A stretch of DNA of 64,000 nt, from assembly GCA_000146465.1 (NCBI GenBank), contig CP001950.1; one strand, 5' to 3'. The position numbers and the translations under genes are program-made. Position 1 is the first letter of the stretch. Each line of letters begins with the position of its first letter. The notes beneath the pieces are model-generated. The model had not been told where the DNA came from. It was given only the letters and a program-made list of their open reading frames with translations, and made no database searches. Below are positions 14,230 to 39,582 of the stretch, one piece after another.

Positions 14230-15363
14230 CTAGATCTCTCCTTCCTCCTTCTCCTCCCAAACCACTTCGAAGTACTTATCCACTGCTCTTTTGTCTATTT
14301 GGCTGATCTCCTCTGTCCTTTCCTTCTCGTATCTTTTCAACTTGTTTTCCAGATCGTTGACAAACTCAAAGTATACCTCCTTGGGACTCTCCATACTCCC
14401 CAGAAGATTCCAGAACGGCTCTGAGTTCTTGAATAAATAAAATGCATCCTTGAACTTCATCTTGTAGTAGATCAGCCCTCTACTATACAGACTGTTCAGA
14501 ACTTGCCTAAACTCCTCTCTGTAATGGGGGATTTTCTCGGCCATTGATGTTTTTTTCTTCTCGATATCCAACAGAAACTCTCTTTCAAGTCTACGGAAGT
14601 ACCGAATAAACGAAAATAGAACCACCTTTCTATCAAATCCCTCCATTTCCTTCATCTTAAGGACGTCGCTTGCCGAGCTGTTCAGATCAATTCCACAGGC
14701 TCGGAATATCTCTTCCAACTTCCCTGCTGTCGTACCCCCCATATGCTTCTCAATATACACCTCATAGCATCCAAACTTGTCCTTGATCCTGGAATAGTAT
14801 GGATGTCTCGAAAATACACTGTTGAAACCAAAGAAATCAGACACTCCGACGTCGACCTTGCAAACCTCGTCTACATAATATTTCTGCCTTTGGACTTCCT
14901 CCTCCCTGTTATTTTCCTCCTTATCTTCAAAGTATTTCCTCACCAGGGACTCTCGAACGTCCATTCTTATCGCCCGGAATATAGGCTCTGTAGACAGCTT
15001 ATAAAATACATCTTTCATGTTTTCTACCTTGTACTGCTCCATTAGCCTGTACAGTAGATACTTAGATGTTTCGTGGTCTGTTATCCTCATGTTCATCCCT
15101 ATTCCTTTTATCAGCGTCTTTCCTTTTCTCTTTTCTCCAGGCCTCTCCCATCTGCTTTCCTTCGTGATAGTGTTATGATAAAAGACTTTTCCTTGCCTGC
15201 TTCTACACTCAATCCATGGATCCACGTCGAAGTCTTCGTCCGAATCTTTAAGTACATCGGGTTTGCGAAAACTGCTTTTCCCCGTCTTCTTGTTGTAGTA
15301 GTATGTCTTGCCGTCGGGCGCAACTAGTACTTCATAGTCCACTTTTGCATCTTTGGCCTCCAT
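14230..15363 (-). CDS. PRP40: Pre-mRNA processing factor Prp40-like (2 WW domains + FF domains)
   Basis: Two WW motifs (W..APDGKTYYYN..T..S.F.KP and W.E..S..GKVFYHN.IT.ES.WERP) followed by FF-like repeats; start taken at MEAKD ATG. Confidence 0.65.
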   Translation of the reverse strand: MEAKDAKVDYEVLVAPDGKTYYYNKKTGKSSFRKPDVLKDSDEDFDVDPWIECRSRQGKVFYHNTITKESRWERPGEKRKGKTLIKGIGMNMRITDHETSKYLLYRLMEQYKVENMKDVFYKLSTEPIFRAIRMDVRESLVRKYFEDKEENNREEEVQRQKYYVDEVCKVDVGVSDFFGFNSVFSRHPYYSRIKDKFGCYEVYIEKHMGGTTAGKLEEIFRACGIDLNSSASDVLKMKEMEGFDRKVVLFSFIRYFRRLEREFLLDIEKKKTSMAEKIPHYREEFRQVLNSLYSRGLIYYKMKFKDAFYLFKNSEPFWNLLGSMESPKEVYFEFVNDLENKLKRYEKERTEEISQIDKRAVDKYFEVVWEEKEEGEI

Positions 15364-15436
15364 TTCAGTTAGGGTTCTCTTAAGAAGAAAGCATATTTTG
15401 TTTATACACAGGCATTCTCTCTTCATTAAGAATACA

Positions 15437-16063
15437 TTATTTATTACTGTTCCTATTCTTCGATCTCGCATTCAGCTCATTGCAATTATAGCAATAGAAC
15501 TCGTTGAGATCGTATTCGCTCGGATGAACCAAGCCGTTGTGATGATTGCATCTCTTACAAATCAACGCATACATAGTACTTGGATCGTCCCCCAGTACAA
15601 TGTCCGTGACACTGTCCATCATCCCCCTTCTTCTTTGCTTAATGCTTCCAAAGTAATGCCTTCTCATCGACTCGCTCTCGTACTTGTCAATAACTTTCTT
15701 TGTCGCTTCAAAGGACTCCTCTTTTTTCAAAAGGGCAATTTGCTCCTTCTGTATCTCTTTTAGAGCTTCAACACTAGACTCCAGTCTTTGGATTCGGATC
15801 TCATACAAATAGATCAAAACACACCTCACTATATAGCATCCAAGTGCACTTCCCACTCCAAACAGCACCATGTTCTGATCATCGGCATACGAGTAAGCCA
15901 TAGAAAGAACAATGACCACACATGACGCCAGAAACATCTTTATTCTAAGACTGTTCAGAGCCCCAGAAAGGTCCTTGGCTGCTTTCTCTTTCTTGCTTAT
16001 CTGCTCTTCAAGCCTTACCAAGCTTTCTCGCAGCGGAACGTTTCTTGAGAGCACATTCCCCAT
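15437..16063 (-). CDS. LNP1: Lunapark (Lnp1) ER three-way-junction protein
   Basis: N-terminal TM hairpin, coiled coil, and C-terminal ALICKRCNHHNGLV...YCYNC zinc finger typical of Lunapark. Confidence 0.7.
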   Translation of the reverse strand: MGNVLSRNVPLRESLVRLEEQISKKEKAAKDLSGALNSLRIKMFLASCVVIVLSMAYSYADDQNMVLFGVGSALGCYIVRCVLIYLYEIRIQRLESSVEALKEIQKEQIALLKKEESFEATKKVIDKYESESMRRHYFGSIKQRRRGMMDSVTDIVLGDDPSTMYALICKRCNHHNGLVHPSEYDLNEFYCYNCNELNARSKNRNSNK

Positions 16064-29384: not shown

Positions 29385-29636
29385 TTATGACATGGTATTT
29401 TTGCAACATTCATCCACCCAGGCTGAATACACATCGATGCCTGTGGTAAGCTTGTTTGCTTCGCAGGTGAAGCTTGCGTCACACACAGAGCAATTTGCAA
29501 ATCCTTTCATCAATGGCCTCTTGACTGTACATTGGACAACGTTTTCATGGTTGCAGACCGGACAGTTGAATCTCTTTTCGAGTTTGGACTGCCTTTTTGG
29601 GGCGTTAATCTTTCTCTTTACCCTTTTCCTACTCAT
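29385..29636 (-). CDS. ELF1: Transcription elongation factor 1 (Elf1) zinc-finger protein
   Basis: KRFNCPVCNHENVVQC......CSVCDASF......IDVYSAWVDEC closely matches Elf1 (FNCLFCNHEKSVSC...CKICGQSF...VDVYSDWFD). Confidence 0.85.
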   Translation of the reverse strand: MSRKRVKRKINAPKRQSKLEKRFNCPVCNHENVVQCTVKRPLMKGFANCSVCDASFTCEANKLTTGIDVYSAWVDECCKNTMS

Positions 29637-29703
29637 AAGGGGATCTTTGAAGCTAAATTAACATATCTCTTGGATACATGAGGGTGGGATTTCCAACCCA
29701 GAA

Positions 29704-29988
29704 ATGGACATACTGGATGCTGAGGAAAGTGATGTTGATTTAATCGAGCTTCAAGGAGAGGTTGAGAATATGGAGGCCTTTGATGGGAGGCTCAACAAGG
29801 AGCTTGTTCAGCTTGAGTTTGGAACATGTGTTCTTCACGGAAGAAAGATTGACAAAGAGTTTAATATCATTGAGACAGACGTCTGCAACGGAAGGCCTTG
29901 TTTAAAAGTCATAAAGAAGGTTAAATGTGTATATTTATTTGATAAGCCTCCTAGGTATAGAAGCTCAGGCCTAGGGCGTGGAAACTAA
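29704..29988 (+). CDS. Hypothetical small protein (94 aa), possible OB/S1-like fold
   Basis: ATG start; acidic N-terminus; no confident match. Confidence 0.3.
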   Translation: MDILDAEESDVDLIELQGEVENMEAFDGRLNKELVQLEFGTCVLHGRKIDKEFNIIETDVCNGRPCLKVIKKVKCVYLFDKPPRYRSSGLGRGN

Positions 29989-30846
29989 GCATCCGTGTTG
30001 CACACAATGCATTTTTCGTCTCTGTCTAAAATCAGCTTTTCCAAAGTAATATTCTTCTCCCCGCTGTAGAATATGAAGTCGTAGTGCAGGTTTGTTGCAT
30101 CTATCAACCCGCATGCCAAGCTTGCACACACAGAGTTAATAAAACACACATTCGGAATTATCTCGTCAAACATCCCAACAACATCAAATGCATTTACTTT
30201 CAGATTCTCCTCTGCAAGAGCATTGAATTCATTGATTATTTTCTTGATCTTTTCCTCCCTACTTCCCGGCTCCTCTCTCCTGAGCTCTACCAAGGACCGG
30301 AGTGTTTTCTCTCTGTTTTCCGGTGTTATCTTCTTTGGCAGAGATCCCAAAGAACATATCTCAGGGCCGTCTTCTCTGTATAACTCCCTGATACAATATA
30401 AACATGAAGAGCCTCTGTAGACTGCCTTTGCATGTGCCCTGTATCCACTTATTCCACAGTCGATAAGAAGTTTACACTCAGATTTTCGGAACATCAGGTT
30501 CAGGTTCATTCTTCCTTCGATGTTGTCAAGAGCCCCAAAGATCACGTCGTACTGATTCAAAACATTGATAGGAACCTCCTCTATCCTTCGTACTAGGAAG
30601 CTTGCTCTACCTCCATACTGCTTGTTTATAAACTCGGCTGCCTTCTCTGACTTGTATTTCCCTTGATCCTCCTTTGTAAACATGAAAAGCCTGTGGAGAT
30701 TTGTCAGATGAATTCGGTCATGGTCAACCACAAGTATCTTGCTCGCCCTTCCACCCAAAAGCTTCAGTAGCTCCATTCCAGTTCCTCCACATCCTGAAAT
30801 TAGTTACTCGCCACTTACCAACTAGAACTATCCTCATAAAGGGCAT
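29985..30846 (-). CDS. Ubiquitin-like activating enzyme E1 catalytic subunit (UBA3/UBA2-like, ThiF fold); two exons (30846-30819 and 30793-29985)
   Basis: After removing a 25-nt GTAAGT..AG intron the N-terminus reads MPFMRIVLVGCGGTGMELLKLL..VDHD.I..TNL.R (Rossmann GxGxxG + NLNRQ-like), restoring the otherwise missing nucleotide-binding motif; C-terminal C..C zinc motif as in UBA3. Confidence 0.7.
30794..30818 (-). other. Spliceosomal intron (25 nt), 5'ss GTAAGT, branch-like TAACTAAT, 3'ss TTTCAG, interrupting codon 10 of the E1 gene
   Basis: Minus-strand sequence gtaagtggcgagtaactaatttcag; removal joins ...RIVLVG to CGGTGMELLK in frame; unspliced read hits TAA. Confidence 0.7.
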
Positions 30847-30909
30847 AGGCAAAAGACATTTCACATTCAAGACATACTCATTTTTATTTGAGACTCTCAT
30901 GTCAATGTG

Positions 30910-38966: not shown

Positions 38967-39582
38967 TCACAGAGTATCGCTCAGATCATGGCAGTCTATC
39001 TCGAACGAAGCGTCGCCGTCCTTGTCGGATTCCTCGGATACCACTGCATTGTTCCTAAATAAATCATTGGAGTCTAAAGCCTTTTCATTTATCTTGTGGA
39101 TTCTTTGTATCTCTTTGATGTAGTTCTTGTCATAACAGCAGTTTCCCAGTGAGTTTCCGAACTGCCTCAGAGCCCTCTTGAGAGCATCCGTTGCTGCTTC
39201 TTTCTTTGCTTTTTCATATGCAATGGCCTTGGATTTCTGGTTTTCCGAACTCCCAAACCCGATGTCTTCTCTGTATGTTCCATCCTTGAGCATGACCCTA
39301 ACTAGGCAAGATACCCCCAGCCCAATCTTCTTGTCCCCTCCCTCTTCATAATCAATCGTCATGCTCCGTATTTCCGACGACCAGCCGTTGAATCCAAAAA
39401 TCCGGTTTGCCAGGCTTATGGCCATCCAGCCCTCGACATATGCTATCTTCGACATGTTAAACCCAGGCCTGTAGCTGATAAACTCCGGCCCAAGCTTTTG
39501 CCTGAGAAGTTTCGATATCTTCTTTGCTTTCTTCTTACTAAAAGTACCGGGTCTCCAGCTCCTTGGTTCTCCTTCTTGCATA
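38967..39582 (-). CDS. RAD52: Rad52 (N-terminal DNA-annealing domain)
   Basis: LGPEFISYRPGFN...YVEGWMAISLANRIFGFNGWSSEI...FGNSLGNCCYDK conserved Rad52 core; start at MQEGE with GGGG context. Confidence 0.8.

What the first reader, a model, noticed from the sequence alone, without database searches (positions are those of the whole stretch)
30794..30846. 25-nt spliceosomal intron at codon 10 of the E1 (UBA3-like) gene, missed by ORF-based annotation
The ORF track starts the E1 protein at MELLKLLGG, i.e. after the obligatory Rossmann GxGxxG motif. On the minus strand the sequence atg ccc ttt atg agg ata gtt cta gtt g|GTAAGTGGCGAGTAACTAATTTCAG|ga tgt gga gga act gga atg gag... splices to MPFMRIVLVGCGGTGMELLK, which restores the canonical E1 nucleotide-binding motif. 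The unspliced reading hits TAA inside the intron. GTAAGT, an ACTAAT-like branch sequence a few nt from the AG, and the ~25 nt length match the ultra-short introns described for Encephalitozoon-type microsporidia. Those are mostly reported in ribosomal-protein genes; here the intron is in a ubiquitin-like activation enzyme, and a Prp40 homologue is encoded 15 kb away.
Basis: partly seen in the sequence, partly recalled or inferred. Interest (0 to 1): 0.6.

Follow-up and report, generated by a model that had tools for sequence, protein, structure and literature searches.

The report
Known 25-nt intron in microsporidian UBA3 gene
The 25-base interruption is a genuine ultra-short spliceosomal intron near the start of the NEDD8-type E1 (UBA3-like) gene of the microsporidian Encephalitozoon intestinalis, but current public annotations of this species and its relatives already include it, so it is correct and ordinary.

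Summary
On the minus strand a 25-nt GT..AG element (30818..30794, GTAAGTGGCGAGTAACTAATTTCAG) separates a short first exon from the 263-codon ThiF ORF. Removing it restores the Rossmann strand and GxGxxG loop (MRIVLVGCGGTGMELLK...). The element carries both Encephalitozoon intron signals, GTAAGT and CTAAYTT just before the AG. The same intron sits at the same position and phase in E. cuniculi, E. hellem, an E. romaleae-like contig, Ordospora colligata and three uncharacterised relatives (23-28 nt). One relative lacks it and has the two exons fused exactly at the predicted junction.

It is not new. The window is 100% identical over 6,853 bp to an E. intestinalis assembly, where the gene spans 853 bp for a 275-aa product. 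The spliced 275-aa protein is exactly GenBank ADM12211.2 (E. intestinalis ATCC 50506). The first 2010 annotation probably did miss it; later updates added it.

Corrections: the annotated, orthologue-supported start is the second ATG (30837), so the intron lies in codon 7, not 10. The intronic TAA closes the exon-2 frame, not the exon-1 frame. Non-ribosomal genes with such introns have been reported since 2010. No RNA data could be examined here.

The parts
30819..30837 (-). Exon 1 as annotated publicly: ATG AGG ATA GTT CTA GTT G (M R I V L V + first base of Gly7). An E. intestinalis-specific in-frame ATG lies 9 nt upstream at 30846..30844.
   Evidence: The NCBI gene range maps to window 30837..29985. 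The exact 275-aa product is ADM12211.2; the 278-aa version is absent from the collection. Orthologues all begin M-[RK]-[IMV]-[IVL]-[LV]-[VA]-G.
30794..30818 (-). Spliceosomal intron, 25 nt, phase 1, inside the Gly7 codon (G|GA): GTAAGTGGCGAGTAACTAATTTCAG.
   Evidence: Orthologous introns of 23-28 nt lie at the same position in seven other genomes. The annotated gene spans 853 bp for a 275-aa product.
30813..30818 (-). 5' splice site GTAAGT, fully complementary to the ACUUAC 5' end of Encephalitozoon U1 snRNA.
   Evidence: Sequence. The U1 motif is reported in PMC5499648. GTAAGT is present in 7 of 8 intron-bearing orthologues; O. colligata has GTATGT.
30797..30803 (-). Branch-point motif CTAATTT (published E. 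cuniculi consensus CTAAYTT). The inferred branch adenosine is at 30800, 6 nt from the 3' splice-site G.
   Evidence: Sequence. The consensus comes from PMC2483917. TAAYTT is present in all 8 intron-bearing orthologues. The identity of the branch A is inferred, not shown.
30794..30795 (-). 3' splice-site AG.
   Evidence: It is conserved in all intron-bearing orthologues.
29985..30793 (-). Exon 2, including the TAG stop at 29987..29985. Features: rest of the GxGxxG loop (G7-C-G-G-T-G12, ending at 30777); CLYC zinc motif 30404..30393; catalytic-Cys motif ICSLGSLP 30359..30336 (Cys153 codon 30356..30354); C-terminal CIVC 30011..30000.
   Evidence: Pfam ThiF, E = 4.7e-24. The best solved-structure matches are UBA3: 1tt5_B at 4.7e-16, with query 2-232 aligned and 'eicslgslp' opposite 'pmctiasmp'. 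Coordinates.
30841..30843 (-). CCC-like signal directly upstream of the annotated start. In this species it lies between the two ATGs.
   Evidence: The alignment places CCC or C-rich runs just 5' of the start in the Encephalitozoon orthologues. CCC-like initiation signals are described in PMC5499648 and PMC10815200. Its function here is inferred.

Best explanation
The window is Encephalitozoon intestinalis DNA, probably chromosome IX. The element at 30818..30794 (minus strand) is a canonical U2-type, ultra-short spliceosomal intron in the gene for the UBA3-like (NEDD8-type) E1 catalytic subunit.

Proposed mechanism:
1. The pre-mRNA starts a few bases upstream of ATG 30837.
2. U1 snRNA (5' ACUUAC) pairs with GUAAGU at the 5' splice site.
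3. U2 recognises the CUAAUUU branch motif, whose adenosine lies only 6 nt from the 3' AG.
4. Excising the 25 nt joins G|GA to re-form the Gly7 codon.
5. The result is a 275-aa protein that begins with the Rossmann beta-1 strand and glycine loop (MRIVLVGCGGTG).

If the intron is retained, the frame shifts and translation ends after 37 codons. Starting at the internal Met (MELLK) would give an E1 without its ATP-binding loop.

What is shown: the sequence anatomy, the positional conservation, the identity with curated gene models and the homology of the spliced product. What is inferred: the splicing itself and the snRNA pairings, which rest on published E. cuniculi work. No RNA data for this gene were examined.
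For: Identity with public records:
- The spliced product from ATG 30837 is identical to GenBank ADM12211.2, KAL7345038.1 and others from E. intestinalis.
- The window matches NCBI contig JBLUPL010000020.1 with 0 mismatches over 6,853 bp. There the gene is annotated over 853 bp (828 coding + 25) for a 275-aa product. JBLUPL is an E. intestinalis isolate assembly (PMC12697097).

Orthologues:
- Annotated orthologues show the same gene-length excess over the CDS: 25 nt in E. cuniculi, 26 nt in E. hellem, 24 nt in O. colligata.
- In the aligned DNA, GT(A/T)(A/T)GT, TAAYTT and AG are conserved while the intron interior and length vary (23-28 nt, not in steps of three). Exon 1 is conserved as protein and differs by synonymous changes.
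- The syntenic orthologue L007 has no intron and reads CTA GCA GGA TGT GGA, the exact predicted junction.
- The internal Met is not conserved. Other species have GTG, ATT, GTT or ACA at that codon.

Protein homology:
- The spliced protein aligns from residue 2 with UBA3 'KVLVIGAGGLG'.
- Pfam ThiF covers residues 4-221 of the 278-aa ATG1 model, which are residues 1-218 of the 275-aa product.

Published consensus:
- GT-AG boundaries, strict 5' splice site, length 22-76 nt (PMC3629993).
- CTAAYTT branch motif (PMC2483917).
- U1 snRNA ACUUACC (PMC5499648).
Against: Published RNA-seq in E. cuniculi reports that most short introns are removed from under 20-50% of transcripts (PMC3629993), so much of the mRNA may stay unspliced. 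I could not confirm from the papers held that ECU09_0870 is one of the 37 introns validated there. Lee et al. 2010 is not held, and the locus tag appears in no searchable text.
Confidence: 0.96

Rival explanations
1. There is no intron. The gene is the plain 263-codon ORF starting at ATG 30776 (MELLKLLGG), giving an N-terminally reduced E1, and the GT..AG element is ordinary 5' leader.
For: The ORF exists. Automatic gene calls on Logan contigs report exactly this 263-aa product (P0001). Microsporidian proteins are often shortened.
Against: - That start Met is not conserved. E. cuniculi, E. hellem, L005 and L006 have GTG, O. colligata has ATT, L010 has GTT and L007 has ACA.
- The product would lack the beta-1 strand and the GxGxxG loop that align with UBA3 from residue 2.
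- The 19-nt exon 1 is conserved as protein across eight genomes.
- An intronless orthologue encodes the fused sequence.
- Curated annotations use the spliced model.
Confidence: 0.02
2. The 25 nt are an assembly error or a frameshifting insertion in a decaying gene (a pseudogene), not an intron.
For: A 25-nt insertion near the start of a gene disrupts the frame, as a pseudogenising indel would.
Against: - The sequence is identical in an independent E. intestinalis isolate assembly and in a Logan read-set contig (L004).
- An insert of 23-28 nt with GT, a branch motif and AG is kept at the same position across Encephalitozoon and Ordospora.
- The downstream 268 codons remain open and conserved at 52-75% identity.
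Confidence: 0.01
3. An alternative upstream donor is used. GTATGT at 30877 paired with the same AG would give an 84-nt intron, and ATG 30881 would give M-R|C-G-G-T-G...
For: My relaxed scan found this in-frame combination.
Against: - The product would lack the conserved IVLVG strand.
- The donor lies in the intergenic stretch just after the upstream gene's AATAAA and is not conserved in E. cuniculi or E. hellem.
- No public model uses it.
Confidence: 0.01

Closest known systems
The same gene in the public E. intestinalis annotation (ADM12211.2 'ubiquitin activating enzyme E1-like protein'; UniRef name 'NEDD8-activating enzyme E1 catalytic subunit'; KAL7345038.1 and others in the 2025 isolate assemblies)
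   Same: It is the same locus. The DNA has 0 mismatches over 6,853 bp. The annotated gene span of 853 bp equals window 30837..29985, and the 275-aa product is identical.
   Different: Nothing biological differs. That 278-aa form is not in the protein collection.
Orthologous introns in E. cuniculi (M970_090870, CP091433.1), E. hellem (CP119070.1), E. romaleae (AFN83742.1, 275 aa) and Ordospora colligata (CWI42_100320)
   Same: Same gene, same neighbours (TPR gene upstream, 94-aa gene and Elf1 downstream), same insertion point and phase in the Gly codon of GxGxxG, same signals.
   Different: Length is 24-26 nt and the interior sequence differs. O. colligata uses GTATGT and ...TTTAAAG. E. intestinalis alone has the extra in-frame upstream ATG.
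The set of 36-37 ultra-short (22-76 nt) spliceosomal introns of Encephalitozoon (Lee et al. 2010; Grisdale et al. 2013, PMC3629993; Pombert et al. 2015 Table 1, PMC4313915)
   Same: GT-AG boundaries, GTAAGT donor, CTAAYTT branch motif next to the acceptor, extreme 5' position in the gene, 25-nt length.
   Different: None in kind. It lies in a non-ribosomal gene, but many of the introns added in 2010 do too.
Human/yeast UBA3 (NEDD8/Rub1 E1 catalytic subunit; PDB 1tt5_B, 1yov_B, 3gzn_B)
   Same: Adenylation (ThiF) domain, GxGxxG loop, CxxC zinc motifs, and a catalytic Cys in an xCS/T(I/L) context aligned with PMCTIASMP.
   Different: Much shorter: 275 aa against 434-463 in the human UBA3 chains. 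The alignment ends at query residue 232, so there is no room for a full C-terminal ubiquitin-fold domain. The margin over SUMO E1 UBA2 is modest (4.7e-16 against 1.7e-12), and the E. hellem record names its orthologue 'sumo-activating enzyme subunit 2'.

Membership tests
Encephalitozoon-type ultra-short U2-dependent spliceosomal intron | GT...AG boundaries | tested here: met
   GT at 30818-30817 and AG at 30795-30794.
Encephalitozoon-type ultra-short U2-dependent spliceosomal intron | Extended donor GTAAGT complementary to U1 snRNA ACUUAC | tested here: met
   GTAAGT at 30818..30813. The U1 motif is reported in PMC5499648. The pairing itself is inferred.
Encephalitozoon-type ultra-short U2-dependent spliceosomal intron | Branch motif TAAYTT / CTAAYTT a few nt from the acceptor | tested here: met
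   CTAATTT at 30803..30797, followed by C and then AG. The consensus is from PMC2483917. The motif is present in all eight intron-bearing orthologues.
Encephalitozoon-type ultra-short U2-dependent spliceosomal intron | Length within the 22-76 nt range; not a multiple of three, or carries a stop, so that retention is non-productive | tested here: met
   The intron is 25 nt. Retention shifts the frame and translation stops at TGA 30726..30724. The length range is from PMC3629993.
Encephalitozoon-type ultra-short U2-dependent spliceosomal intron | Removal restores a conserved protein; position is shared by orthologues | tested here: met
   UBA3 alignment from residue 2. Same position and phase in seven other genomes, and exact exon fusion in the intronless L007.
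Encephalitozoon-type ultra-short U2-dependent spliceosomal intron | Excision demonstrated in RNA | not testable with these tools
   No RNA-seq reads were accessible. PMC3629993 states that all annotated E. cuniculi introns were confirmed by RNA-seq, but the gene list (Figure 2 and Additional file 2) is not held as text.
UBA3 (NEDD8-activating enzyme catalytic subunit) | ThiF/MoeB-type adenylation domain with a GxGxxG ATP-binding loop | tested here: met
   Pfam PF00899, E = 4.7e-24. G7-C-G-G-T-G12 is present only after splicing.
UBA3 (NEDD8-activating enzyme catalytic subunit) | Catalytic cysteine aligned with that of UBA3 | tested here: met
   Cys153 in 'eicslgslp' aligns with 'pmctiasmp' of 1tt5_B. 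Coordinates.
UBA3 (NEDD8-activating enzyme catalytic subunit) | Closer to UBA3 than to the other E1 paralogues (UBA2, UBA1, UBA5) | tested here: inconclusive
   The top eight PDB matches are all UBA3 (4.7e-16, query 2-232 aligned). UBA2 scores 1.7e-12 and aligns only query 2-141. No phylogeny of E1 paralogues was made, and public names disagree: NEDD8 E1, 'E1-like', and SUMO E1 subunit 2.
UBA3 (NEDD8-activating enzyme catalytic subunit) | C-terminal ubiquitin-fold domain for E2 recruitment | tested here: inconclusive
   Only 43 residues follow the aligned region, whereas about 140 follow it in human UBA3. The domain is probably absent or vestigial. No structure was predicted.
UBA3 (NEDD8-activating enzyme catalytic subunit) | Partner subunit (ULA1/APPBP1), NEDD8/Rub1 and Ubc12 encoded in the genome | not tested
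   These lie outside the window and were not searched.

The most novel reading that the evidence does not exclude
The most novel reading still open is that the intron acts as a dosage valve. On this reading the short intron is spliced inefficiently, so that most transcripts encode only a 37-aa dead-end peptide, and the level of the NEDD8-type E1 is set or regulated by intron retention. The E. intestinalis-specific upstream ATG would add a further layer, and the precise intron loss in the uncharacterised relative from run DRR353006 would mark a lineage that has dropped this control. Nothing examined here tests splicing efficiency or regulation.
Probability: 0.08. Interest if true: 0.35.

Novelty: already known. 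Interest (0 to 1): 0.08.

Why it matters
It matters little beyond annotation quality. The case shows why ORF-only gene calling truncates microsporidian proteins. Automatic calls on Logan contigs give the 263-aa form without its ATP-binding loop, and the 2010 E. intestinalis annotation listed only 14 introns, against 36 after the 2014 update. The comparative set assembled here has small value for studies of intron retention and loss in reduced genomes. It contains eight intron-bearing orthologues and one apparently precise loss.

Tried and rejected
- **Other introns in the window.** I ran relaxed scans for GT[AG][ATG]GT...TAA[CT]T...AG, and for any donor plus branch-like tail that restores an ORF of at least 80 codons. 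Every other hit lies inside a continuous ORF, antisense to a gene (39273..39305 +), or in the divergent intergenic region upstream of the Elf1 gene (29713..29653 -), where it overlaps the start codon of the opposite gene. None is credible.
- **Alternative 84-nt intron** from GTATGT 30877. Rejected: it is not conserved and it removes the conserved beta-1 strand.
- **Rfam scan** of the whole window at gathering thresholds. No match, so no snRNA or other known RNA lies nearby.
- **Literature.** I tried to confirm that the E. cuniculi orthologue (presumed ECU09_0870) is in the published intron lists. Lee et al. 2010 is not held under its DOI or PMC id. The locus tag occurs in no searchable full text. 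In Grisdale et al. 2013 it appears only in the expression table, at 94-126 FPKM. A search for Encephalitozoon + intron + 'ubiquitin-activating' found nothing, and PMC8476143 has no relevant text.
- **Spliced transcripts in public assemblies.** The exact spliced protein is held only by NCBI and UniRef sources, not by Logan read-set assemblies. This gives no independent RNA evidence.

Full report
**Observation**

Searches give this reading of the minus strand:

...GCCT ATG CCC TTT ATG AGG ATA GTT CTA GTT G | GTAAGTGGCGAGTAACTAATTTCAG | GA TGT GGA GGA ACT GGA ATG GAG...

- The first ATG is at 30846 and the second at 30837.
- The 25-nt element spans 30818..30794.
- The long ORF that the mechanical ORF list reports (29985..30776, 263 aa, MELLKLLGG...) lies downstream in another frame.
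- Joining 30819 to 30793 gives an open CDS: MPFMRIVLVGCGGTGMELLK..., 278 aa from ATG1 or 275 aa from ATG2.
- Pfam assigns the product to ThiF (E = 4.7e-24), with the match beginning at residue 4 of the 278-aa model, which is residue 1 of the 275-aa product.
- The strict pattern GTAAGT-N(3-33)-ACTAAT-N(1-8)-AG occurs once in the window on either strand, at this site. Shuffles expect 0.10 hits.

One detail of the finding is wrong. In the exon-1 frame the unspliced message reads through the intron and stops at TGA 30726..30724. The TAA in the intron (30806..30804) is in the exon-2 frame, where it blocks upstream extension of the long ORF.

**What the protein is**

Against solved structures, the eight best matches are all the NEDD8-activating enzyme catalytic subunit UBA3 (1tt5_B, E = 4.7e-16).

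- Query residues 2-232 are aligned.
- 'RIVLVGCGGTGMELLK' lies opposite 'KVLVIGAGGLGCELLK'.
- 'SSCLYC' lies opposite 'TACIEC'.
- 'EICSLGSLP' lies opposite 'PMCTIASMP', which places the query's Cys153 opposite the cysteine of that UBA3 motif.

SUMO E1 UBA2 and UBA1 follow at about 1e-12 with shorter alignments. Exon 1 therefore supplies the beta-1 strand of the Rossmann fold. The split Gly7 codon is the first glycine of GxGxxG. 'UBA3-like' is reasonable, although the protein is short (275 aa) and public names disagree.

**Comparative evidence**

A protein search found 15 relatives. I fetched the genomic DNA for ten of them. The gene order is the same in all close relatives: TPR gene, E1, a convergent gene of about 94 aa, Elf1 zinc ribbon, a 214-aa gene, RNase PH.

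| Source | Intron length | Sequence |
|---|---|---|
| E. cuniculi | 25 | GTAAGTGGCACCAGGCTAATTTCAG |
| E. hellem | 26 | GTAAGTGCCATTAGAGTTAATTTTAG |
| L005 (E. romaleae-like contig) | 26 | GTAAGTGCCATCTGAATTAATTTTAG |
| L006 | 26 | GTAAGTGGTACTGAGACTAATTTGAG |
| L008 | 28 | GTAAGTGATGAGCTGTTTCTAACTTCAG |
| L010 | 23 | GTAAGTGACACAATCTAATTTAG |
| Ordospora colligata | 24 | GTATGTGATAACTTTAATTTAAAG |

- The donor, the TAAYTT motif and the AG are conserved.
- The interior and the length vary, and not in steps of three.
- Exon 1 is conserved as M-[RK]-[IMV]-[IVL]-[LV]-[VA]-G and differs by synonymous changes.
- In the NCBI records the annotated gene span exceeds the CDS by 25 nt (E. cuniculi), 26 nt (E. 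hellem) and 24 nt (O. colligata). Curators therefore already model the intron.
- The internal Met used by the ORF call is GTG, ATT, GTT or ACA in other species, so it cannot be the conserved start.
- One syntenic relative (L007, from run DRR353006) has no intron. It reads ...CTA GCA GGA TGT GGA GGG..., which is exactly the predicted exon junction.
- In a rough single-gene neighbour-joining tree without bootstrap, L007 sits among intron-bearing lineages. That suggests a precise loss.
- Two more distant microsporidian homologues (P0014, P0015) also lack the intron.

**Identity of the window and state of knowledge**

- An exact-sequence look-up shows that the 275-aa product from ATG 30837 is GenBank ADM12211.2, 'ubiquitin activating enzyme E1-like protein [Encephalitozoon intestinalis ATCC 50506]'. 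The same sequence is KAL7345038.1, KAL7346984.1 and KAL7348933.1.
- UniRef calls it 'NEDD8-activating enzyme E1 catalytic subunit'.
- The 278-aa version is not in the collection.
- Contig JBLUPL010000020.1 belongs to an E. intestinalis isolate assembly described in PMC12697097. It is identical to the window over all 6,853 bp fetched.
- Its gene spans 853 bp, which equals window 30837..29985, for the 275-aa product.

The publication history fits this.

- The 2010 genome paper listed 14 manually detected spliceosomal introns (PMC4355639).
[quoted passage not shown] RNA-seq later confirmed all annotated introns and brought the total to 37 (PMC3629993).
- The 2014 accession updates give 36 introns for E. 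intestinalis (PMC4313915 Table 1).
- The MicroAnnot supplement lists, among E. intestinalis introns missing from the earlier annotation, a CDS at NC_014423 93985-94837.
- That CDS is 853 bp long and offset by exactly 64,000 from the window coordinates. It is almost certainly this gene, which would make the window NC_014423:64001-128000. This mapping is an inference from the numbers, not a sequence check.

**Mechanism**

Published work gives the Encephalitozoon signals:

- GT-AG boundaries with a strict donor, and lengths of 22-76 nt (PMC3629993).
- A CTAAYTT branch motif (PMC2483917).
- A U1 snRNA with a human-like ACUUACC 5' end (PMC5499648).

The window intron matches all three. The putative branch adenosine (30800) lies 18 nt from the donor G and 6 nt from the acceptor G. 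Splicing re-forms the Gly7 codon. Retention gives a 37-aa (ATG2) or 40-aa (ATG1) dead-end peptide. Short E. cuniculi introns are reported to be removed from only a minority of transcripts (PMC3629993), so substantial retention is plausible here too. No RNA data were examined.

**Start codon**

Four observations favour ATG 30837:

- All orthologues start at the ATG homologous to 30837.
- That ATG is preceded by a C-rich or CCC stretch.
- In E. intestinalis the CCC (30843..30841) lies between the two ATGs.
- The curated model uses 30837.

The intron is therefore in codon 7, not 10. This is favoured but not proven, and 5' RACE would settle it.

**Other checks**

- Relaxed intron scans found no other credible intron in the window.
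- Rfam found nothing at gathering thresholds.
- The 'Prp40 homologue' exists as a 413-aa ORF with two WW domains at 14230..15471 (-). Its distance from this intron has no bearing on splicing.

**Verdict**

It is a rediscovery of an intron already present in the public annotation of this genome and of four related species. Novelty: already known. Interest: low.

Noticed in passing
L007:1501-1560 (Logan contig DRR353006_319235), compared with window 30794-30837: A syntenic orthologue from an unidentified microsporidian (59% protein identity) lacks the intron, and its exons are fused exactly at the junction (CTA GCA GGA TGT GGA). In a rough single-gene tree it nests among intron-bearing lineages, which suggests a precise intron loss.
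   Followed up: partly
window 30838-30846 (-): E. intestinalis has an extra in-frame ATG 9 nt upstream of the orthologous start (ATG CCC TTT ATG). The CCC-like initiation signal sits between the two ATGs. The other species have no ATG there.
   Followed up: partly
window 30855-30905 (-): Between the upstream TPR gene's stop and the E1 start lie two conserved elements: an AATAAA just after the stop, and a TGTGAAATG-like block about 25-30 nt before the E1 start. Both are shared with E. cuniculi, E. hellem and L005. They may be 3'-end and promoter signals packed into a spacer of about 70 nt.
   Followed up: no
window 29985-29988: The E1 gene (-) and the convergent 94-aa ORF (+, 29704..29988) overlap by 4 bp, and their stop codons interlock (TTAG/CTAA). 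The same 4-bp overlap is annotated in E. cuniculi, E. hellem and the E. intestinalis isolate.
   Followed up: partly
No FF domain was detected at E <= 0.01.
   Followed up: partly
P0003 (E. hellem) versus P0016/P0017/P0013: Public names for this orthologue group disagree: 'sumo-activating enzyme subunit 2' (E. hellem), 'ubiquitin activating enzyme E1-like' and 'NEDD8-activating enzyme E1 catalytic subunit' (E. intestinalis, E. romaleae), 'NEDD8-activating protein uba3' (O. colligata). One O. colligata model (P0013, 237 aa) and several Logan calls are N-terminally truncated because the intron was not modelled.
   Followed up: partly
window 29653-29713 (-): A 61-nt GTATGT...TTAATTTAG string lies in the divergent intergenic region just upstream of the Elf1 zinc-ribbon gene (29385..29636 -). 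It overlaps the start codon of the opposite 94-aa ORF. I judged it a chance match, but conservation was not checked.
   Followed up: no
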